This document shows, in pieces, positions 34,919 through 42,589 of a DNA stretch of 64,000 nucleotides. Within the stretch, counting starts at the first letter, position 1. The number at the start of each line of letters is the position of its first letter. Origin of the DNA: an uncultured Dehalococcoidia bacterium (GTDB taxonomy: Bacteria > Chloroflexota > Dehalococcoidia > Lucifugimonadales > JADFKI01); NCBI GenBank assembly GCA_964595285.1, contig CAZQPS010000042.1, positions 2,030 through 66,029 on the forward strand, in the 5' to 3' direction. Under the pieces are notes generated by a model. The model had not been told where the DNA came from. It worked only from the letters and a program-made list of their open reading frames with translations, and ran no database searches. A program made the translations under genes and the position numbers.

Positions 34919-36592
34919 TCAATTAAGGAATTCGTCAGAAAGGATTTCCAGGAATGCGATTCCGATACATCCCAAAGGACTTGAACCCTGCCTGAGGCCA
35001 CCCTTGGAGCGGTCTGCGCACGTACCTATTGTGTGACTAATTTCCGTATTAGCTTGTATAGAAATCGCAACATCTAGCGAGGGTACATAATAAAGCAAGG
35101 AGGAATACCCAGATCCTCCTCCAGGGTGTCCATAGGTAAGAATTAATCTCCCATCATCCAGTTCATATTCTGTCGAGACTAGGTGGTATCCATATTGTTG
35201 TCTGGGTTCGTTCAGTGAGATCCATTCGTCTACGAACGATTCCGAAAGGTCGGATAGCGCTTGTTTGCCTATAGCTGTTCCATGTGGACTTAGGAGTTCA
35301 TAGGCCCAACGTGCTGTTGTTGCAGAAGTAGATATAATCCCTGCTCCTGCCCAAGATAGCCTCCCGTCTGATTGCTGGAAATCTAGTCCGTATGATGTGT
35401 ACATTTTGATTTTAGAAAGATCGCCAAATCCCTGTGGCCCCCCGTATTTGGATCTTTCAGCAAATGGGGCTGCTAAATCTTTGGGGGTCTCAGTTATGGG
35501 TAGGAGACCTACATTTATATTGAGAGGGTCAAGCAAAGTTGTTTGGTATAGAGTAAGCAGATCGTTGTTGCCTTTTTCTTCAGCAACGATTCCAAGCAAG
35601 TACGAATTTGCGATAGGAGAATATTTGTATGTCCCAGGGGGCTCAGCAAGCGTCTGGGCTAGCTTTAAGCTATCAATGGGGTCCCACGTTGGGTACATCA
35701 TTGTCTTGCCAGTTGCTACTTTCCCACTGTCACGGTGTGTTCCAAGGACTCCCGATCTCATCGTAAGTAGCTGTCTTATGGTGACATCTGGAATGATATT
35801 CTTATTGAGCGTTTGATACTTTTTGTGAGTTCCTAATAGTACTGACACTTGATCGTCGAGAGAATATAAACCCTCTGCAATTTGTGTCATCACTAGCGCA
35901 GCAAGAAACGTCTTGGAGGTACTCATGAGACGCGTGGGGGTAGTTGTGGTCATAGGGATTCCTACATCTGCGAATCCACTAGCGTCTGACCAGGCCATAC
36001 CCTGTTTATAAACGGCAGCGGATATGCCCATCTTTTGAGTATGGGATTCAAATTCACTATGTAGGGCATTAGAGAGACTTTCAGTTACAGCCTCCGGGAA
36101 TGTTTCTTCAATATCATCATAGGTGAATTGTGGCACGGGAGCTGGTGGTAATTCGGGCAATGTGGTCCGACGTTCCAGCGTCTCTTTAGGTTGAACAGAG
36201 GTTATTTCATCCTTAGGGTTTTGAAGAACACCTGGGGTAGGTAATGGTTTCGCTACCACTGTAGGGCCTGATGCCACATCAACAGTTGGAGAAATAATTA
36301 CTGTTGATTTCACAATTGGTTCGGGCGATTTTGTTGGGTTACTTGATTTCGAGGACTGTACATTTGGTATCTCAGTGGGTGAAGTCGGGATCGTAACTGC
36401 TGCGGTTGGGACTGATCGAGGTTTACTTGTAGGTGAAGCATTAGCTGTCTTCTTGGTACTAGTTTCCGTGGTGGGGGTGGGCGCAGCGGGGTTCTCTTCG
36501 TTAACAGAAGATGAACATGCCATAGTGACTGATAATAATGAAAGTGCCAGTAGAAACAATACGAAACAGGAATTTTTGCGATCTTGAGCCAT
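34919..36592 (-). CDS. Lipoprotein, serine hydrolase / beta-lactamase (class C, DD-peptidase) family, with a long Pro/Thr/Ser linker
   Basis: The ATG at 36592 follows AGAGG. The lipobox is SVTMAC. A low-complexity PTS-rich linker of about 170 aa follows. The SxxK motif lies in LMSTSKTF. The ORF-track extension to 36691 overlaps the tRNA and is rejected. Confidence 0.85.
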   Translation of the reverse strand: MAQDRKNSCFVLFLLALSLLSVTMACSSSVNEENPAAPTPTTETSTKKTANASPTSKPRSVPTAAVTIPTSPTEIPNVQSSKSSNPTKSPEPIVKSTVIISPTVDVASGPTVVAKPLPTPGVLQNPKDEITSVQPKETLERRTTLPELPPAPVPQFTYDDIEETFPEAVTESLSNALHSEFESHTQKMGISAAVYKQGMAWSDASGFADVGIPMTTTTPTRLMSTSKTFLAALVMTQIAEGLYSLDDQVSVLLGTHKKYQTLNKNIIPDVTIRQLLTMRSGVLGTHRDSGKVATGKTMMYPTWDPIDSLKLAQTLAEPPGTYKYSPIANSYLLGIVAEEKGNNDLLTLYQTTLLDPLNINVGLLPITETPKDLAAPFAERSKYGGPQGFGDLSKIKMYTSYGLDFQQSDGRLSWAGAGIISTSATTARWAYELLSPHGTAIGKQALSDLSESFVDEWISLNEPRQQYGYHLVSTEYELDDGRLILTYGHPGGGSGYSSLLYYVPSLDVAISIQANTEISHTIGTCADRSKGGLRQGSSPLGCIGIAFLEILSDEFLN

Positions 36593-36646
36593 TAAATACC
36601 TCTTGCAAAAATGGATACATTTGTGAGTTCTGAGGACTAAGGGATA

Positions 36647-36722
36647 TGGTGGAGCTGAGGGGACTCGAACCCCTTGCCTCCTCAATGCCATTGAGGCGCT
36701 CTCCCAGATGAGCTACAGCCCC
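36647..36722 (-). tRNA. tRNA-Ala (anticodon GGC), CCA encoded
   Basis: A hand-folded 76-nt cloverleaf reads GGGGCTG-TA-GCTC-ATCTGGGA-GAGC-G-CCTCA-ATGGCAT-TGAGG-AGGCA-AGGGG-TTCGAGT-CCCCT-CAGCTCC-A-CCA. The G3:U70 alanine identity pair is present. Confidence 0.93.
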
Positions 36723-36903: not shown

Positions 36904-37551
36904 CTAATTAAATCGGCTCATTGCCACGTCCAAACCCTCAAACAGTATAGATTCTACAATGTCTGAAATGTTGTCGATAGTAATGGCGATTAATTTGTGC
37001 TCGGAACGGGGTAAATTCCCAATGACATATTCAACTTGATCTACGCCCTCACGAGGTTTCCCCACGCCGATACGCAATCTGGGAAAATCCTGGCTTCCTA
37101 AAGTCTCTATTATTGATTTTACGCCATTATGGCCACCAGCACTACCTCCGTTTCTAAGCCGCAATTTTGCTATTGGTAAATTGATATCGTCGTAAAGGAT
37201 CAAGATATTGTCTCTTCGTGATTTATATCTATTTAGGAGGTAATTAACTGAGTCTCCACTCCGGTTTACATAAGTTCGTGGTTTGGCAAGGATAACTCGG
37301 TGGGTACCTATTTGGCATTCTCCAATCATTGTTGTATTGTGTTTGCGATCCAACTTAACAGAGTATTTTTCAGCAAGTGCATCAATGCACCAAAAGCCTA
37401 CATTATGACGAGTTTGGGCGTACTTTGGGCCAGGATTGCCAAGGCCGACAACTATGAGATCAGGGGTAGACTTTGATTTGTGATTGTCGCCCCGTCCGCC
37501 TAGTATGTTTTCAAATGATGGAATTCTTAATTTTGGCATTATTTCTGTCAC
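36904..37551 (-). CDS. pth: Peptidyl-tRNA hydrolase
   Basis: Motifs seen are LIVVGLGNPGPKYAQTRHNVGF and GHNGVKS. A non-conserved N-terminal extension of about 30 aa leaves the start uncertain (GTG 37551 or ATG 37539). Confidence 0.9.
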   Translation of the reverse strand: MTEIMPKLRIPSFENILGGRGDNHKSKSTPDLIVVGLGNPGPKYAQTRHNVGFWCIDALAEKYSVKLDRKHNTTMIGECQIGTHRVILAKPRTYVNRSGDSVNYLLNRYKSRRDNILILYDDINLPIAKLRLRNGGSAGGHNGVKSIIETLGSQDFPRLRIGVGKPREGVDQVEYVIGNLPRSEHKLIAITIDNISDIVESILFEGLDVAMSRFN

Positions 37552-37578
37552 ATTGTCTTCAATGGTTGAGCAAGAAGC

Positions 37579-37618
37579 TACTATAATATTAATAATTTAA
37601 ATTATTAATATTATAGTA
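37579..37618. repeat. Perfect 40-bp A/T-only palindrome
   Basis: TACTATAATATTAATAATTTAAATTATTAATATTATAGTA is its own reverse complement; I checked this base by base. It contains TATAAT hexamers on both strands. Confidence 0.95.
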
Positions 37619-38016
37619 CGCCGTTTGATGCAAGAACATGCGTGATGAGATTTCGAATATCTCCACATTTAGTAAATATCCCCTGACTCTCATGGACAAA
37701 GGACAATAGTTCATGACTTTTTCTTATTGTATGCACAGCTTGGTGAGCATCGAAATAATCCGTCTTAGGATGTAGTGCATGATATGAGGTTTGGGAAACT
37801 TCATTGAAGGCGTGTATTAACAAGCTACATACATCCGATTTTGGACGGATGATCAAGGTTATCTATTCAGGGATAGTTTGCATTGCTAAGAAAATAGAAA
37901 CAAATAGGGCAATAGATAAATTCATTAACAAGAAATCGACTGAAATCTGTGTAAATAGTTGTATTGGTACTTATATTTACCTGTGTGTAGACGGACAAAA
38001 GCAGAATCGTTACCCA

Positions 38017-38046
38017 TTGACATACTTTTATAATTTAACGTAGAAT
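38017..38046 (+). promoter_or_regulatory. Candidate sigma70-type promoter for the aro leader
   Basis: TTGACA (38017-38022) is separated by 18 nt from TAGAAT (38041-38046). A TATAAT hexamer also lies at 38029-38034. The predicted TSS is at or just before the leader ATG at 38055. Confidence 0.4.
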
Positions 38047-38054
38047 TGGTAATC

Positions 38055-38144
38055 ATGAAGATACTTAGTTTTACATATTCTAACTATTATTATTTTATCG
38101 GCCTAAATACGGTCGGTGGGCAGTCTGCGTCGGTTACGATGTAA
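38055..38144 (+). CDS. Tyr/Phe-rich leader peptide (29 aa) of a transcription attenuator
   Basis: The peptide is MKILSFTYSNYYYFIGLNTVGGQSASVTM. It has 4 Tyr and 2 Phe within 9 consecutive codons (38070-38096). It lies immediately upstream of an intrinsic terminator and the DAHP synthase gene. Confidence 0.6.
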   Translation: MKILSFTYSNYYYFIGLNTVGGQSASVTM

Positions 38145-38172
38145 GCTTAAATAAATAATACGGAAGACTTTG

Positions 38173-38199
38173 ACCCAGCCGACCAGAGGCTGGGTTTTT
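38173..38199 (+). terminator. Attenuator terminator in the DAHP synthase leader
   Basis: ACCCAGCC (38173-38180) pairs with GGCTGGGT (38188-38195) and is followed by TTTTT. An alternative antiterminator pairs 38111-38120 with 38174-38184. Confidence 0.7.
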
Positions 38200-38229
38200 A
38201 ATTTCTCAAGAAGGGGAGTAGTGACTATA

Positions 38230-39303
38230 ATGCAACCATCACCAGCAAGAGATGTAAACATAATGAAAACGGAACCACTAATAAGTCCTGTCGAACTCAT
38301 CAAAGAGATGCCCCTAACGACAGAAACTGAAGCTGCTGTTCTTAGTGGGAGACGCCAAATACAGGCTGTATTGAGGGGAGACGACCCGAGATTTCTCGTG
38401 ATTACAGGGCCATGTTCTGTCCATGATGAAGATGCGGCTCTAGATTATGCTAGCAGGCTCAAGGCTCTTTCAGATGAGTTGAGTGAACGGATACTCATCG
38501 TGATGAGAGTGTATTTTGAGAAACCCCGAACGACTGTAGGTTGGAAGGGGCTCATTTATGATCCTCATTTGGACGATACTTTCGATATTAATGAGGGAAT
38601 TAGAAAAGCGCGATCACTACTTATGAAAGTCTCAGAGTTGGGGCTGCCCACCGGAACGGAGTTTCTGGATCCGATTGTTCCTCAATACTTGGCTGGTTTA
38701 GTTTCTTGGGCTGCTATTGGGGCCAGGACTACTGAAAGTCAAACTCATAGACAGATGGCTAGTGGGCTAAGCATGCCTGTGGGATTCAAAAACGGCACTG
38801 ATGGAAGCGCGCAAGTCGCTGTTGACGCCATGATTTCTGCAAGAGCGGAGCATGCTTTTCTTGGGATAGATCATTTTGGACAGACGTGTATTGTACACAC
38901 AAACGGCAACCCTTATGGCCATCTCGTTTTGAGGGGAGGTAATAGTGGGCCTAATTTTGGGTCAGATGCTATTCTTCAAGCTAATGAGTTGCTAAGTAAA
39001 TCAGGAGTACCCTCGCAATTATTGGTTGATTGCAGTCATGGGAATTCTAATAAAGACCATAAAAGACAATCTATAGCTCTTCAAGATATTATCGAACAAA
39101 GGGTAGCTGGGAATAGTAATGTGATTGGTTGCATGTTGGAAAGTAATATAAATGCAGGTAATCAGAAGCTAGGCAACAATCTTTCGGAACTTCAGTATGG
39201 AGTGTCAGTTACTGACGCTTGTATAGACTGGTCAGAGACCGAGGAATTGTTGCGTTGGGCATATGACAGGATGCAGGGTGTTATTAAGCAACCAGTAGCT
39301 TGA
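38230..39303 (+). CDS. 3-deoxy-7-phosphoheptulonate (DAHP) synthase, class I (AroF/G/H type)
   Basis: Motifs seen are RFLVITGPCSVHD, KPRTTVGWKGLIYDP and VDCSHGNS. The ATG at 38230 aligns with the AroG N-terminus. Confidence 0.93.
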   Translation: MQPSPARDVNIMKTEPLISPVELIKEMPLTTETEAAVLSGRRQIQAVLRGDDPRFLVITGPCSVHDEDAALDYASRLKALSDELSERILIVMRVYFEKPRTTVGWKGLIYDPHLDDTFDINEGIRKARSLLMKVSELGLPTGTEFLDPIVPQYLAGLVSWAAIGARTTESQTHRQMASGLSMPVGFKNGTDGSAQVAVDAMISARAEHAFLGIDHFGQTCIVHTNGNPYGHLVLRGGNSGPNFGSDAILQANELLSKSGVPSQLLVDCSHGNSNKDHKRQSIALQDIIEQRVAGNSNVIGCMLESNINAGNQKLGNNLSELQYGVSVTDACIDWSETEELLRWAYDRMQGVIKQPVA

Positions 39304-39534
39304 TGAGTGCGCAGTTCCCTGGCCTTAGGGGTTGTCTCCTTTATGGCTTTGGATAGAGAAGCTTATTTGAAGTCGTTGATCTTATTGACATGTCTTCGAT
39401 CGCGATGCTAAATTGCTTGAAAGAGGGCATGCAGCAGCAGGATACGACTAAGTTTTAAGTCGTGTCACGCTATGTAGTCAGTTGTTATGATAGCTGCTAG
39501 TCTTAAGTATAAGAGTTCGTTAACAATTGAAGAA

Positions 39535-39772
39535 ATACGTATAGGATTTAAGGGAAGACGGTTAAAGTCCGTCGCGGTCGCGCCACTGTAAACGAGGAAA
39601 TTCCAACATATGTCACTGCGTTAAACGTATAACCGTGGGAAGACGTTGGTAAAGTACTGATACGTAAGCCAGAACACCTTAAATAATGTACGAGACGTTT
39701 ATATCTGCGCGTAACGGAGAGTCTTGTTCACTGGAATTTTGAGGCCTCACAGTTTTGTTGTGGGGCCTTTTT
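39535..39772 (+). promoter_or_regulatory. Cobalamin (B12) riboswitch with terminator expression platform
   Basis: The conserved core reads AAGGGAAGACGGTTAAAGTCCGTCGCGGTCGCGCCACTGTAAAC and GTGGGAAGACGTTGG. A B12-box-like AAGCCAGAACACCT is present. The terminator pairs AGGCCTCACA (39742-39751) with TGTGGGGCCT (39759-39768) and is followed by TTTT. Confidence 0.8.
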
Positions 39773-39793: not shown

Positions 39794-40732
39794 TTGAGGT
39801 TTACAATATTGAAAAACATTTTAATCCTAAAATTTATAATAGTTTGTATATTTTTTATTATTGGCTGTGCTGATGATTCAAATGCTGGTTTACAAGTTGA
39901 CACGGATGCAAACAGTTCTGGTTCGTCCACATTCCCCTTAGAAATAACGGACGGATTTGGGAAACTGATTGCTTTGAAAGACCCACCGCAGAATATTGTT
40001 GTTATAGATTCTGCAGCAGTGGAAATTTTGTACGATCTAGGTGCACAAGATCGCATCCTGGCTACTCATGAATTTGTTAGTTATCCCCCTTCGACAGTTG
40101 ATATTCCGAGAATTGGAAACGCTTTCACATTAGATTATGAAAAAATTGTTTCCCTTGAGCCCGATTTGATTTATGTTTTTTTTGATGGACCTTACCAGGA
40201 CTTGGTCGCATTAGATATCCCGGTATTGTATCTAAAATCACCCACATCTCTTGAAGGTGTAGCTGAACGGATAAAGCTTTGGGGGAAGATAGTAAATAAA
40301 GAGAATACTGGAGAGAAGATTGCTAAAGAATTTCTCCAGTCTGTGAGTGAAATCGAGTCAAAAGTGTCTGATATCCAGTCCTCTGTGAAAATTTATCATG
40401 ATGTCTCACCGGATTGGTGGACAAGTGGCTCCGGAACTTTGTCCAATGAAATTATGACTAGATTGAAGGCTGAGAATATTTTCAATGATACTGACGGTTG
40501 GCCTCAGGTCAGTGTTGAACAAATTGTTGATAGAAATCCTGAGTTTATTATTAGTGTTTATCCTGAAGGTCGTGAAATGTTGCTTAACAGCGGTGCTCTG
40601 GAATCCGTTGATGCTATTCGTAATCAAAAGATATTGACAATGGATGGTGACCTTATAGCTATTGAAGGACCACGTTTGATTCAAGGAATGACTCTAATAG
40701 CAGAGTTTCTTTATGAAGATCGCTTCAGGTAA
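39794..40732 (+). CDS. ABC transporter substrate-binding lipoprotein (BtuF/FhuD-type, Peripla_BP_2)
   Basis: The lipobox is FIIGC. The family pattern is visible in IVVIDSAAVEILYDLGAQDRI and EPDLIYVF. The gene lies directly downstream of the B12 riboswitch. Confidence 0.85.
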   Translation: MRFTILKNILILKFIIVCIFFIIGCADDSNAGLQVDTDANSSGSSTFPLEITDGFGKLIALKDPPQNIVVIDSAAVEILYDLGAQDRILATHEFVSYPPSTVDIPRIGNAFTLDYEKIVSLEPDLIYVFFDGPYQDLVALDIPVLYLKSPTSLEGVAERIKLWGKIVNKENTGEKIAKEFLQSVSEIESKVSDIQSSVKIYHDVSPDWWTSGSGTLSNEIMTRLKAENIFNDTDGWPQVSVEQIVDRNPEFIISVYPEGREMLLNSGALESVDAIRNQKILTMDGDLIAIEGPRLIQGMTLIAEFLYEDRFR

Positions 40733-40749
40733 TATTATGCTGATCTGAT

Positions 40750-41805
40750 TTGGCGGTGGTTAAAATGCCAAAAATAAATGGCCTAGGTGGTGCACCCACG
40801 GTTATTGTTTCTATTGGCATTTTACTTGCAATTTCAATCTTGGCTGTTGGTGTTGGGTCGGTTCAAATCCCCCCTTTGTCAGTCATTCAAATTGTAAGTT
40901 CTCAACTGCAATTTTCTTCACTGGGGCAGGAGATACCTCAATCATGGATTACGATAGTTTGGGATATTAGGGTTCCAAGAATAATTGCGGCTGTAATTGC
41001 AGGATACTCGCTAGCTGTATCTGGAGCTGTGTACCAAGGATTATTTCGAAATCCTTTAGCTGATCCTTACCTAATCGGGGTTGCTTCAGGTGCGGGATTA
41101 GGTGCAACTATAGTATTGGTAACGGATATTCCGATTATGTGGTTGAGTGTTCCTGTTTTATCAATTGCAGCTTTTATTGGTGGAACTGGAGCAGTTTTGT
41201 GTGGATATTTAATATCACGTACAGGAAGTAGAGTTTCCTTAGGAACATTAATACTCGCTGGTGTTGCAGTTGGTTCTTTCTCTGGTGCAATGATCTATTT
41301 TCTTATGATTACTGCCGATCCTGATGTTAAACCACTTCTTGTCTGGCTTATGGGAGGATTGTCAGGTATCGAGTGGAATGATGTATTCATGATAACGCCG
41401 TATATATTGATTTTTGCATCTGTGCTTCTTTTTTATGGTAGAACATTAAACATTTTGCAATTCGGAGAACGGGACGCATCTACTTTGGGGGTTGATGTTG
41501 AACGAACTAAAATCATTTTGATTATATCTGCCACCGTTCTCACCTCTTTTGTAGTTTCGATAAGCGGCCTAATCGGCTTTATTGGTTTGGTAGCACCTCA
41601 TATTGTTAGATTAATTTGGGGACCGGACAATAGATTTCTCATTCCTATGGCGGGGATTACAGGCGCAATATTTCTTTTAATTGCGGACTTATTTGCTCGA
41701 ACTGTTGCCAGCCCTACAGAAATACCTGTAGGGCTAGTAACTGCTTTTTTGGGGGCCCCGTTTTTTTTGTATATATTATTCCGTAATCGTTCTCAGATGC
41801 TTTGA
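40750..41805 (+). CDS. ABC transporter permease (FecCD/BtuC family)
   Basis: The protein has about 10 TM helices. Motifs seen are RIIAAVIAGYSLAVSGAVYQGLFRNPLADPYLIG and GLIGFIGLVAPHIVR. Confidence 0.9.
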   Translation: MAVVKMPKINGLGGAPTVIVSIGILLAISILAVGVGSVQIPPLSVIQIVSSQLQFSSLGQEIPQSWITIVWDIRVPRIIAAVIAGYSLAVSGAVYQGLFRNPLADPYLIGVASGAGLGATIVLVTDIPIMWLSVPVLSIAAFIGGTGAVLCGYLISRTGSRVSLGTLILAGVAVGSFSGAMIYFLMITADPDVKPLLVWLMGGLSGIEWNDVFMITPYILIFASVLLFYGRTLNILQFGERDASTLGVDVERTKIILIISATVLTSFVVSISGLIGFIGLVAPHIVRLIWGPDNRFLIPMAGITGAIFLLIADLFARTVASPTEIPVGLVTAFLGAPFFLYILFRNRSQML

Positions 41806-41806
41806 T

Positions 41807-42589
41807 ATGAATAAAGTTCAAATTCGGGATGTTAGAGTTGTTCTTAATGGGTTGAATATAATTAATAATATTTCCGTAGATATTCAAAAGGGAGAAATTT
41901 TCGGTGTCATTGGGCCAAATGGATCCGGGAAAACCACCTTAGCCAGGCTTCTCTCAGGGCAATTAAGGCCAGATTCAGGTAGAGTGAATGTGGATAATTC
42001 AAGCATATTAAAATTGTCTGCGAAAGATAGAGGAAAGCTTGTAGCAATGGTTTCACAAAATCCGGAATATTCTCCTGGATTCAGGGTTTGGGATATTGTA
42101 ATTGCCGGAAGAAATCCACATCTTGGTATGATTCAAAGAGAGTCATGCGAAGACGTTATGATCGTGAAAAACGCTATGGAGCGGGTCGATGTATTGCATT
42201 TGGCAGATCGCTTTATTGAGACTCTTTCTGGTGGCGAAAGGCAGCGCGTTTTTCTTGCAAGAGCACTAGCACAAGACACCTCGCTATTAATTTTGGATGA
42301 ACCTACTTCCAATCTCGATATTGGATACCAAACCGCCATAATGGAGTACATTAAGGAAATTAATAGAAGTTCTGAAGTAACGGTTTTTATAACTATTCAC
42401 GATTTAGCTGTAGCCGGGCATTATTGTGACAGATTAGTTCTCATCAATAGTGGAGAAATTGTTAGTATTGGCAAGCCTGAGTCAGTACTTAAGGCAGACT
42501 TGTTGTCGATGGTATATGGAACCGATCTTATTGTAGTTTCTCACCCCAGTGATGGATCCCCAATGATTATACCCAAATTTCTTGCATAG
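41807..42589 (+). CDS. ABC transporter ATP-binding protein (BtuD/FepC-like)
   Basis: Walker A is GPNGSGKTT, the ABC signature is LSGGERQR and Walker B is LLILDEPTS. Confidence 0.92.
   Translation: MNKVQIRDVRVVLNGLNIINNISVDIQKGEIFGVIGPNGSGKTTLARLLSGQLRPDSGRVNVDNSSILKLSAKDRGKLVAMVSQNPEYSPGFRVWDIVIAGRNPHLGMIQRESCEDVMIVKNAMERVDVLHLADRFIETLSGGERQRVFLARALAQDTSLLILDEPTSNLDIGYQTAIMEYIKEINRSSEVTVFITIHDLAVAGHYCDRLVLINSGEIVSIGKPESVLKADLLSMVYGTDLIVVSHPSDGSPMIIPKFLA

What the first reader, a model, noticed from the sequence alone, without database searches (positions are those of the whole stretch)
38017..38229. Tyr/Phe-codon leader-peptide attenuator controlling a DAHP synthase
- A 29-codon ORF (38055-38144) encodes MKILSFTYSNYYYFIGLNTVGGQSASVTM. 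Six of nine consecutive codons (38070-38096) are Tyr or Phe, including a YYYF run.
- Downstream lies an intrinsic terminator: an 8-bp GC-rich stem (38173-38180 with 38188-38195) followed by T5.
- GGTCGGTGGG (38111-38120) is complementary to CCCAGCCGACC (38174-38184), giving 10 bp with one bulge. This antiterminator would sequester the 5' arm of the terminator.
- TCGGCC (38098-38103), directly behind the YYYF codons, can pair with GGTCGG (38111-38116). A ribosome stalled on Tyr/Phe codons would mask this anti-antiterminator.
- This is the full logic of trp/phe/his-type attenuation, placed in front of the first enzyme of the common aromatic pathway. In E. coli the DAHP synthase genes are controlled by the TyrR and TrpR repressors, and I know of no described DAHP-synthase leader peptide.
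- The -35/-10 pair (TTGACA 38017, TAGAAT 38041) would put the TSS at about the ATG. The leader ORF may therefore be leaderless, which would explain the lack of an SD.
Basis: partly seen in the sequence, partly recalled or inferred. Interest (0 to 1): 0.8.

Follow-up and report, generated by a model that had tools for sequence, protein, structure and literature searches.

The report
Tyr/Phe leader-peptide attenuator before DAHP synthase
A tiny tyrosine/phenylalanine-rich gene and a switchable RNA terminator sit in front of the first enzyme of aromatic amino-acid synthesis in a marine Chloroflexota genome; this is classic attenuation, conserved across the clade, new for this phylum but not a new kind of mechanism.

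Summary
The window holds a promoter, a 29-codon ORF (38055-38144) with YYYF, three competing helices and an intrinsic terminator, all upstream of a type I-alpha DAHP synthase whose ATG is at 38230, not 38231.

The element is not a chance feature. The upstream 300 nt give P about 0.003 against shuffles. A homologous leader precedes the orthologous DAHP synthase in every Chloroflexota relative examined down to about 63% protein identity. In all of them the aromatic codons stay in frame, and the 1:2 hairpin and terminator show compensatory changes. The antiterminator complementarity is conserved. The -10 box always ends 5-9 nt before the ATG and there is no Shine-Dalgarno, so the leader mRNA is leaderless.

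Masking the RNA under a ribosome stalled on Y11-F14 flips the predicted fold from terminator to antiterminator.

Its novelty claim is not. A Phe-Tyr-Phe leader (aroR) attenuates the DAHP synthase gene aroF in Corynebacterium glutamicum, an aroF uORF motif is predicted in Acholeplasma, and leaderless leader peptides are common in Actinobacteria.

This is a new RNA family, with no Rfam match, in a new phylum, but of a known kind.

The parts
38017..38046 (+). Sigma-70-type promoter: -35 TTGACA (38017-38022), 18-nt spacer, -10 TAGAAT (38041-38046). The predicted transcription start is about 38051-38055, at or within 0-4 nt of the leader ATG.
   Evidence: scores it 11 of 12. All 15 leaders compared have a perfect TTGACA, a 16-18 nt spacer, and a -10 box ending 5-9 nt before the leader ATG.
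38055..38144 (+). Leader ORF of 29 codons plus TAA: MKILSFTYSNYYYFIGLNTVGGQSASVTM. It has no Shine-Dalgarno and is inferred to be leaderless.
   Evidence: Homologous ORFs occur in relatives. No SD-like motif lies within 20 nt upstream, whereas every DAHP synthase start has one.
38070..38096 (+). Regulatory codons F6, Y8, Y11, Y12, Y13 and F14. The core YYYF is at 38085-38096.
   Evidence: The run is kept in frame in relatives (YYYF, AYYF, WYYF, YYWLF, YYFY), with TAT/TAC synonymous changes.
38094..38103 (+). Region 1, UUUAUCGGCC: the 5' arm of the anti-antiterminator. It overlaps the Phe14 codon, so a ribosome stalled on Y12-F14 covers it.
   Evidence: MFE folds. RNAalifold consensus. Helix 96.8% paired with 3 compensatory pairs.
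38111..38126 (+). Region 2, GGUCGGUGGG plus the extension CAGUCU. It pairs with either region 1 or region 3. It encodes the conserved ..TVGG.. part of the peptide.
   Evidence: The 2:3 duplex is -18.5 kcal/mol against a shuffle mean of -12.4. Alignment column 129 covaries with both partners.
38122..38147 (+). Spacer hairpin that contains the leader stop codon. Its role is unknown; it may be a pause site or a spacer.
   Evidence: A hairpin at or near the stop codon also appears in relatives, but with different sequence.
38165..38184 (+). Region 3: AGAC..UG plus CCCAGCCGACC. This is the terminator 5' arm and part of its loop. It is the 3' arm of the antiterminator.
   Evidence: The masked MFE fold pairs 38111-38126 with 38165-38184 and leaves 0 of 7 terminator pairs.
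38172..38199 (+). Intrinsic terminator: stem 38174-38180 with 38188-38194 (up to 9 pairs from 38172-38196), 7-nt loop, and U tract 38195-38199.
   Evidence: -13.8 to -14.3 kcal/mol. Conserved in relatives, 92.8-97.5% paired with compensatory pairs.
38210..38218 (+). Shine-Dalgarno GAAGGGGAG of the DAHP synthase gene.
38230..39303 (+). Type I-alpha (AroF/G/H family) 3-deoxy-7-phosphoheptulonate synthase, 357 aa: the regulated gene.
   Evidence: NCBIfam NF009395 at 516 bits and TIGR00034 at 482 bits. Pfam PF00793. Homologues are named Chloroflexi/Chloroflexota bacterium.

Best explanation
This is a ribosome-mediated (leader-peptide) transcription attenuator. It adjusts expression of the DAHP synthase gene to the supply of charged tRNA-Tyr and tRNA-Phe.

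Proposed steps:
1. Transcription starts at or a few bases before the leader AUG, so the leader is translated as a leaderless mRNA.
2. When Tyr and Phe are plentiful, the ribosome runs through YYYF and over region 2 to the stop codon. Behind it, region 1 (38094-38103) pairs with region 2 (38111-38120).
3. Region 3 is then free to form the terminator with region 4 (38174-38180 with 38188-38194, plus the U tract). RNA polymerase stops near 38199, 30 nt before the DAHP synthase ATG.
4. When charged tRNA-Tyr or tRNA-Phe is scarce, the ribosome stalls on Y11-F14 and covers region 1.
5. Region 2 stays free and pairs with region 3 as soon as region 3 emerges (38111-38126 with 38165-38184). The terminator cannot form and the DAHP synthase gene is transcribed.

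Shown here: the sequence elements, their conservation, covariation in 1:2 and 3:4, conserved 2:3 complementarity, and the predicted fold switch.

Inferred: translation of the ORF, the transcription start, termination at the U tract, the amino-acid response, and the kinetic ordering of folding.
For: (1) Anatomy is confirmed in the window.

(2) The unmasked leader folds into 1:2 plus the terminator (-39.7 kcal/mol, 7 of 7 terminator pairs). Masking the RNA up to 13 nt from the A-site codon of Y11, Y12, Y13 or F14 gives an MFE with the antiterminator and 0 of 7 terminator pairs.

(3) A homologous leader lies upstream of the orthologous DAHP synthase in all relatives fetched at 63-82% protein identity: L081, L085, L088, L090-L092, L094-L100, L001-L003.
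- A covariance model built from 14 of them finds L002 (E = 2.5e-7) and L003 (E = 2e-4), which were not in the model.
- It finds only one copy in the window.

(4) The aromatic run is kept in frame. Tyr codons change only TAT to TAC or to Trp, while the N-terminal part of the peptide varies freely.

(5) RNAalifold independently predicts the 1:2 hairpin and the terminator.
- They are 94.7% paired on the MAFFT alignment, with 5 pairs changed on both sides. 0 of 500 shuffles reach the covariation score, and slid controls reach at most 66%.
- On the model-fitted alignment they are 97% paired with 12 such pairs.

(6) The antiterminator core is paired in about 84% of cells, against at most 49% when slid. 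Alignment column 129 changes U to C together with its region-1 partner (A/G to G) and, in 3 of 5 cases, with its region-3 partner (A to G).

(7) In transcripts cut before the terminator 3' arm and masked for a stalled ribosome, the terminator 5' arm pairs with region 2 in all 15 leaders tested. These are 14 of this family plus the analogous Polyangiaceae leader L072.

(8) Region 2 always lies about 11-32 nt after the last aromatic codon, and region 1 overlaps or abuts that codon.

(9) All 15 leaders have TTGACA, a 16-18 nt spacer, and a -10 box ending 5-9 nt before the ATG. None has an SD, while every DAHP synthase start has one.

(10) In a metagenome pattern scan, the 7 true family members all sit next to a DAHP synthase wherever enough sequence is present.

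(11) Among 80 DAHP synthase loci, aromatic-run ORFs with at least 5 of 9 aromatic codons occur 7 times on the sense strand upstream and 0 times antisense. They occur in 1.5% of shuffles.

(12) There is precedent: aroR-aroF in C. glutamicum.
Against: - There are no experimental data. The organism is an uncultured Chloroflexota lineage, and translation, transcription start and 3' ends are all inferred.
- Covariation in the antiterminator is thin: one pair. The column-shuffle control does not separate it from chance because the columns are nearly invariant. Its support is conserved complementarity plus the slid controls.
- At equilibrium, many relatives keep the terminator even when masked.
- In the window and 6 of the other 14 leaders, the transcript cut before region 4 prefers 2:3 even without a stalled ribosome. 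Termination under repletion must therefore rely on co-transcriptional kinetics, or on the ribosome sitting on region 2.
- A ribosome at the window's stop codon (38142) would not cover region 2.
- The U tract is only 5 T.
- The individual 2:3 duplex z-scores are modest, from -0.9 to -3.
Confidence: 0.8

Rival explanations
1. A structured cis-regulatory RNA switches the same terminator and antiterminator by binding a protein or a small ligand, like a riboswitch or a TRAP/PyrR-type attenuator. The overlapping ORF would be incidental.
For: The most conserved nucleotides are regions 2-4 rather than the peptide N-terminus. The ..NTVGG.. conservation is explained by RNA pairing.
Against: - No Rfam family matches, even at E up to 10.
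- There is no conserved ligand-pocket-like element beyond simple hairpins.
- An ATG fixed at the predicted transcription start in all 15 leaders compared, and an in-frame aromatic run with third-position-only changes, have no use without translation.
- Region 1 always overlaps or abuts the last aromatic codon.
Confidence: 0.06
2. The nascent peptide itself arrests the ribosome, as TnaC or SecM do. Arrest would respond to a free aromatic amino acid or another signal rather than to tRNA charging, with the same RNA switch downstream.
For: The motif around the run is fairly constant (Y-Y-F-[TI]-x-x-[NH]-[TA]-[VA]-G-G). Other DAHP synthase clades carry conserved upstream peptides without an obvious terminator, such as ...YRWxYICRRRA in L016 and L017.
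Against: - Conservation after the run coincides with regions 1 and 2 of the RNA and covaries as RNA.
- The run varies in composition (YYYF, AYYF, AYCF, WYYF, YYWLF, YYFY) while remaining aromatic. That fits codon counting better than a specific arrest sequence.
- The N-terminal residues, which would lie in the exit tunnel, are not conserved.
Confidence: 0.06
3. The mini-ORF is an independent small gene, or a small RNA, with its own terminator. The DAHP synthase gene would be transcribed from a separate promoter and not regulated by it.
For: In relatives, 100-190 nt separate the terminator from the DAHP synthase start, which is room for a promoter. A weak promoter-like match, TTCTCA-17-TATAAT, lies at 38203-38231 in the window.
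Against: - That -10 box overlaps the DAHP synthase ATG and is not conserved in relatives.
- Only 30 nt separate the U tract from the ATG in the window.
- The leader is strictly linked to DAHP synthase across changing gene neighbourhoods.
- The conserved 2:3 complementarity has no purpose in a simple terminator.
Confidence: 0.05
4. The pattern is a chance product of AT-rich sequence (TAT/TTT repeats) next to an ordinary hairpin.
For: Local GC is low (0.39), and TATTATTATTTT is low-complexity sequence.
Against: P is about 0.003 in shuffles. The element is conserved and covaries in relatives with up to 0.56 GC.
Confidence: 0.01

Closest known systems
aroR leader peptide and attenuator upstream of aroF (DAHP synthase, cg1129) in Corynebacterium glutamicum (Neshat et al. 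2014; Mentz et al. 2013)
   Same: Both have a short leader peptide with Phe/Tyr regulatory codons (F-Y-F in aroR), placed directly upstream of a DAHP synthase gene. Ribosome stalling increases transcription of the downstream gene. Other C. glutamicum and Streptomyces leader peptides are likewise translated without an RBS, from leaderless transcripts.
   Different: - The phylum differs: Actinomycetota versus Chloroflexota.
- The run here is longer and Tyr-dominated (YYYF plus F and Y upstream, and Trp in some relatives).
- No sequence comparison was possible because the C. glutamicum sequence is not in the collections on hand. Homology is untested and unlikely.
- In C. glutamicum only Phe limitation, not Tyr, had an effect. 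Specificity here is unknown.
Escherichia coli pheA leader (pheL) and pheST leader (pheM); Rfam Phe_leader RF01859; the trp, his, leu and thr leaders
   Same: The logic is the same, with four regions: 1:2 anti-antiterminator, 2:3 antiterminator, and 3:4 intrinsic terminator. Regulatory codons sit at or just before region 1. (Established textbook mechanism; pheL and trpL are cited in PMC11802643.)
   Different: - The E. coli leaders have a Shine-Dalgarno and a 5' UTR. This one is leaderless.
- They control terminal-branch genes or tRNA synthetases, not DAHP synthase, which in E. coli is repressed by TyrR and TrpR.
- The leader ORF here reads through region 2 and stops 22 nt beyond it.
- No Rfam leader model matches.
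uORFC-13-1 motif upstream of aroF in Acholeplasma (Breaker laboratory 2021, PMC8632094)
   Same: It is a predicted uORF with Phe codons followed by an intrinsic terminator, found exclusively upstream of the DAHP synthase gene.
   Different: It has an RBS and a U run coding for at least one Phe. It occurs in Mollicutes. It is a computational prediction only. The element here is leaderless, Tyr-rich and unrelated in sequence, with no Rfam hit.

Membership tests
Ribosome-mediated (leader-peptide) transcription attenuators, trp/phe/his type | A short ORF in the 5' leader carries a run of codons for the end-product amino acids of the regulated pathway. | tested here: met
   6 of 9 codons are Tyr or Phe (38070-38096), upstream of DAHP synthase. 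P is about 0.003. The run is conserved in frame in relatives.
Ribosome-mediated (leader-peptide) transcription attenuators, trp/phe/his type | An intrinsic terminator lies between the leader ORF and the structural gene. | tested here: met
   Stem 38172-38196 plus T5. It is conserved, with compensatory pairs.
Ribosome-mediated (leader-peptide) transcription attenuators, trp/phe/his type | An antiterminator helix is mutually exclusive with the terminator. | tested here: met
   38111-38126 pairs with 38165-38184 in the masked MFE. The core is paired in about 84% of cells, against at most 49% when slid. It forms in all 15 masked, truncated leaders. Covariation is limited to one pair.
Ribosome-mediated (leader-peptide) transcription attenuators, trp/phe/his type | An anti-antiterminator (1:2) has its 5' arm positioned so that a ribosome stalled on the regulatory codons covers it. 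| tested here: met
   Region 1 (38094-38103) starts with the Phe14 codon. The helix is 96.8% paired with 3 compensatory pairs. Region 1 overlaps or abuts the last aromatic codon in all leaders.
Ribosome-mediated (leader-peptide) transcription attenuators, trp/phe/his type | The leader is translated, and read-through responds to charged-tRNA supply. | not testable with these tools
   This needs Term-seq, reporter assays or ribosome profiling. Only indirect support exists: the ATG is fixed at the predicted transcription start.
Rfam leader families (Phe_leader RF01859, Trp_leader, His_leader, Leu_leader, Thr_leader and others) | The sequence matches the family covariance model. | tested here: not met
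   No leader family appears at gathering threshold in the window or in 18 related loci. None appears at E up to 10 in 37600-38400. The only hit there is a terminator-like match to anti-hemB at E = 0.53.
T-box leaders | A specifier loop and the conserved T-box sequence are present, detected as a match to the Rfam T-box model. | tested here: not met
   There is no T-box hit.
C. glutamicum aroR-aroF attenuator | A leader peptide with Phe/Tyr codons lies directly upstream of a DAHP synthase gene. | tested here: met
   compared with the description. This is functional analogy only.
C. glutamicum aroR-aroF attenuator | The leader RNA or peptide is homologous in sequence. | not testable with these tools
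   The C. glutamicum sequence is not in the collections available.

The most novel reading that the evidence does not exclude
This would be the first leader-peptide attenuator family documented for the phylum Chloroflexota.
- It is a clade-wide, leaderless, tyrosine-dominated sensor, with Trp codons added in some lineages, that gates entry into the shikimate pathway.
- It is unrelated in sequence to any curated RNA family.
- Analogous elements have arisen independently in front of DAHP synthase in other phyla: Polyangiaceae L072, Corynebacterium and Acholeplasma.

If so, translation-coupled attenuation on leaderless mRNAs is an old and recurrent solution outside Proteobacteria and Actinobacteria.
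Probability: 0.6. Interest if true: 0.45.

Novelty: new member of a known kind. Interest (0 to 1): 0.4.

Why it matters
- Gene regulation in marine Chloroflexota is almost unknown because these organisms are uncultured. This gives a concrete, testable example, with a covariance model (R1), of how they sense aromatic amino-acid supply.
- It extends classic attenuation, and the use of leaderless leader peptides, to another phylum.
- It adds a third independent case of DAHP synthase under leader-peptide control. That suggests control at the pathway entry point by tRNA charging is more common than the E. coli TyrR/TrpR picture implies.
- It introduces no new mechanism.

Tried and rejected
- **Rfam.** Gathering and permissive scans gave no leader family.
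- **Plasmid collection.** A blastn search gave only distant DAHP synthase coding matches and no help with taxonomy.
- **Equilibrium folding of full-length masked leaders.** This switches in the window, L098 (only for a stall at Y16 or F18), L100, L003 and L072, and L001 shows the antiterminator even unmasked. It does not switch in L081, L085, L088, L091, L092, L094, L095, L097, L005 or L080. L002 is uninformative there because a wrong terminator was picked. I rejected this as a family-wide test and used transcripts cut before the 3' arm instead.
- **Column-shuffle control for the antiterminator.** It is uninformative because the columns are nearly invariant.
- **Metagenome pattern scan.** 15 of 22 hits were chance matches. 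The covariance model was needed to sort them.
- **L005 and L080.** Both have aromatic leaders plus terminators, but their antiterminator pairing is weak (z = -1.0 and -0.3). I do not count them as solid analogues.
- **The promoter-like site at 38203-38231.** I rejected it as an internal promoter because its -10 box overlaps the ATG and is not conserved.
- **The ORFs at 37614-37856 (-) and 37804-38040 (+).** Neither has a Pfam match.
- **Literature.** Searches found no paper on leader-peptide attenuation in Chloroflexi. Older comparative-genomics papers on attenuators that I recall (Vitreschak 2004, Panina 2001, Seliverstov 2005) could not be retrieved.
Full report
**1. What is in the window**

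Reading 37700-38500 confirms each element of the finding.
- A near-consensus promoter lies at 38017-38046: TTGACA, 18 nt, TAGAAT. It scores 11 of 12 and is the best promoter-like site in the region.
- Eight bases later, an ATG at 38055 opens a 29-codon ORF that ends with TAA at 38142-38144. It encodes MKILSFTYSNYYYFIGLNTVGGQSASVTM.
- A terminator-like hairpin spans 38172-38196, followed by a T run.
- The gene that follows is a type I-alpha DAHP synthase (NCBIfam NF009395 at 516 bits, TIGR00034 at 482 bits; Pfam PF00793).
- Its start is ATG 38230, one base earlier than the finding implies. It is preceded by the Shine-Dalgarno GAAGGGGAG at 38210-38218.

Neighbouring genes:
- Upstream on the minus strand are peptidyl-tRNA hydrolase (36904-37551) and tRNA-Ala (36647-36722).
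- Downstream are a cobalamin riboswitch (39510-39699) and a btuFCD-like transporter.
- No plus-strand gene lies upstream whose terminator this hairpin could be. The roughly 500 nt before the promoter hold nothing recognisable.

**2. Is it more than chance?**

- The 156-nt leader folds better than all 200 dinucleotide shuffles, z = -3.3.
- An ATG ORF of 10-60 codons with at least 6 aromatic residues in 9 appeared in 15 of 5000 shuffles of the upstream 300 nt.
- Only one other such ORF exists on either strand of the 64-kb window, and it lies antisense inside a gene.

**3. Organism and relatives**

- The closest DAHP synthases are 70-82% identical. Where named, they come from 'Chloroflexi/Chloroflexota bacterium' metagenome-assembled genomes with contigs up to 3.9 Mb.
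- The next tier, at 63-66% identity, is Dehalococcoidia and sponge or marine Chloroflexota.
- Window GC is 0.41-0.46.
- The contigs that carry the leader come largely from marine metagenomes.

I fetched the DNA around 12 of these proteins and 80 more distant loci from the GTDB genome collection.

**4. Conservation of the leader**

Every relative down to about 63% identity has a homologous mini-ORF upstream of the DAHP synthase, although the flanking genes differ. Examples:
- L081: MSSTHTFGYWSYYYFTKENTVGGGVVSSKN
- L085: MNNAGAVWFYDYYYFTDTNTVGRGDAS
- L095: MTSASSLWFYGYYYFIDVNKVGRGDAS
- L094: MCNSTASQTYAYYFTGAHTAGGGLASLLN
- L097: MININAFRFYAYYFTGSNAIGGGLAS
- L100: MSDSTMHQAFGVYFYWYYFTGCNAAGEVVVPES
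- L001: MMISSHRFYGYYWLFTGSSAAGRGLVPENR
- L002: MRELPANRYFGYYFYRTDCEVVG

The pattern of conservation fits a translated sensor.
- The N-terminus is free to vary.
- The aromatic run is always in frame. Among close relatives it changes only at third codon positions (TAT to TAC) or to other aromatic codons.
- The conserved ..N-T-V-G-G.. stretch coincides with RNA region 2.

A covariance model built from 14 leaders (R1) gave these results.
- It recovers L002 (E = 2.5e-7) and L003 (E = 2e-4), which were not used to build it.
- It finds a single copy in the window.
- It finds nothing at the other 77 GTDB DAHP synthase loci.

A degenerate DNA pattern scan of metagenomes returned 22 hits. Seven are true family members by the model. 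All of these sit next to a DAHP synthase wherever enough downstream sequence exists.

**5. RNA structure**

RNAalifold on the MAFFT alignment predicts exactly the 1:2 hairpin and the terminator.
- On that alignment they are 94.7% paired. Five pairs change on both sides, no shuffle reaches the covariation score, and slid controls reach at most 66%.
- On the model-fitted alignment of 16 leaders they are 97% paired, with 12 such pairs. That alignment leans towards the structure.

The antiterminator is supported mainly by conserved complementarity. The test pairs were A1 columns 126-136 with 198-210, and A3 columns 60-66 and 70 with 136-145.
- About 71% of cells are paired over the 11 pairs tested on A1, and about 84% over the 8 pairs tested on A3. 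Slid controls reach at most 49%.
- One position is informative. Column 129 is U in nine leaders and C in five. Its region-1 partner is then always G, and its region-3 partner is G in three of the five.
- The shuffle control is uninformative here because the columns hardly vary.
- L003 and the analogous Polyangiaceae leader L072 (section 9) keep the same architecture with different sequence. Their 2:3 duplexes score z = -2.8 and -4.6.

**6. The switch**

For the window:
- The unmasked leader (38055-38194) folds into 1:2 (38094-38103 with 38111-38120), a spacer hairpin over the stop codon, and the terminator. The energy is -39.7 kcal/mol.
- Forbidding pairing up to 13 nt from the A-site codon of Y11, Y12, Y13 or F14 changes the fold. 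The minimum-energy structure then pairs 38111-38126 with 38165-38184 and contains none of the seven terminator pairs.

For the set of 15 leaders (14 of this family plus L072):
- In transcripts cut before the terminator 3' arm and masked in the same way, the terminator 5' arm pairs with region 2 in all 15 leaders.
- Without the mask, region 2 is held by region 1 in 8 of the 15.
- In the window and six others, the cut transcript prefers 2:3 even without a mask. In these, termination under repletion must depend on the order of co-transcriptional folding or on the ribosome occupying region 2. This step is inferred, not shown.
- Region 2 lies about 11-32 nt after the last aromatic codon in every leader, and region 1 overlaps or abuts that codon.

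**7. Leaderless start**

In all 15 leaders compared:
- The -35 box is a perfect TTGACA and the spacer is 16-18 nt.
- The -10 box ends 5-9 nt before the ATG, mostly 7-9 nt.
- No Shine-Dalgarno-like motif precedes the leader ATG. The single AGGA, in L003, lies inside the -10 box.
- Each DAHP synthase start has a strong Shine-Dalgarno.

The transcription start itself has not been measured.

**8. Comparison with what is known**

The mechanism is classic attenuation of the trp, phe and his type. Membership of the curated Rfam leader families and of the T-box family was tested and not met, so this is a separate RNA family.

The statement that no DAHP synthase leader peptide is known is incorrect.
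- In Corynebacterium glutamicum the aroR leader peptide (Phe-Tyr-Phe) lies upstream of aroF (cg1129, a DAHP synthase). Transcription of the operon rises on Phe limitation (PMC11802643 citing Neshat et al. 2014; PMC4046766).
- A uORF motif with Phe codons and a terminator, uORFC-13-1, is predicted upstream of aroF in Acholeplasma (PMC8632094).
- Leaderless leader peptides are documented for C. glutamicum ilvB (Morbach et al. 2000, cited) and for several Streptomyces lividans attenuators (PMC8079986).
- In E. coli the DAHP synthase genes are indeed under TyrR and TrpR control.

I found no paper describing leader-peptide attenuation in Chloroflexi. Older comparative papers that I recall could not be retrieved, so an earlier prediction cannot be excluded.

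**9. Related observations**

- One other lineage among the 80 loci shows an independent aromatic leader with a terminator and a strong antiterminator: L072, Polyangiaceae, MRSPRFHFWFGYWPAVNAASGPSLLF.
- L005 and L080 have aromatic leaders and terminators, but the alternative pairing is weak.
- Over the 80 loci, aromatic-run ORFs with at least 5 of 9 aromatic codons occur 7 times on the sense strand upstream of DAHP synthase. They never occur antisense, and they occur in 1.5% of shuffles.
- Two further Dehalococcoidia clades carry different conserved upstream ORFs without an obvious terminator. I did not pursue these.

**10. Verdict**

- It is a new RNA family in a phylum where such regulation had not been reported in the literature I could search. 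It is also a clean case of a leaderless, Tyr-dominated sensor at the entry to the shikimate pathway.
- It is not a new mechanism, and DAHP synthase leader peptides already have precedents. I rate interest at 0.4 and novelty as a new member of a known kind.

Noticed in passing
L016:100-260 and L017:2200-2360 (upstream of DAHP synthase in two Dehalococcoidia/Chloroflexi MAGs): A different conserved upstream ORF ends in ...YRW[TF]YICRRRA*. It is followed by GC-rich conserved sequence with no T-run terminator. It may be another leader or arrest-peptide type for the same enzyme.
   Followed up: partly
L010, L019, L020, L023: about 320 to 60 nt upstream of the DAHP synthase start (locus positions about 2180-2440): A conserved ORF of 45-55 codons, ...YFGY[ST]YTGGLFTYG.SYRS*, lies between an AroH-type chorismate mutase gene and the DAHP synthase. 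A conserved non-coding block follows it (CACAGCATGCAACTGTGCCGGTCCGACCGAATGAATCA). No intrinsic terminator was seen.
   Followed up: partly
L072:2351-2490 (Polyangiaceae MAG): An independent aromatic leader, MRSPRFHFWFGYWPAVNAASGPSLLF, has a terminator and a strong antiterminator (2:3 duplex -25.4 kcal/mol, z = -4.6) in front of a DAHP synthase. It is not detected by model R1, so it is analogous rather than homologous.
   Followed up: partly
window 39510-39699 and 39794-42589: A cobalamin riboswitch (70 bits) is followed by a btuF/btuC/btuD-like ABC transporter. Relatives keep the order DAHP synthase, then a Pyridox_ox_2 (PF12900) gene, then a cobalamin riboswitch, then cobN. The window lacks the Pyridox_ox_2 gene.
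   Followed up: partly
window 38221-38232: Public gene calls give this DAHP synthase 360 aa, starting at GTG 38221. Relatives (357 aa) and the Shine-Dalgarno spacing favour ATG 38230.
   Followed up: yes
window 37552-38016: There are about 465 nt between the peptidyl-tRNA hydrolase ORF and the leader promoter, and more if that gene starts at its first conserved residue. This stretch has no Pfam-recognisable ORF and no Rfam hit, which is long for a genome of about 3 Mb.
   Followed up: partly
L081, L085, L092 and others: between the leader terminator and the DAHP synthase start: Relatives have 100-190 nt between the terminator and the DAHP synthase ATG, whereas the window has only 30 nt. Whether that spacer holds a second regulatory element or promoter is unknown.
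   Followed up: no
window 36647-36722 (-) and 34919-36691 (-): The tRNA-Ala (GGC) gene overlaps the first 45 nt of the mechanically listed 590-aa ORF. That gene's true start must lie further downstream.
   Followed up: no
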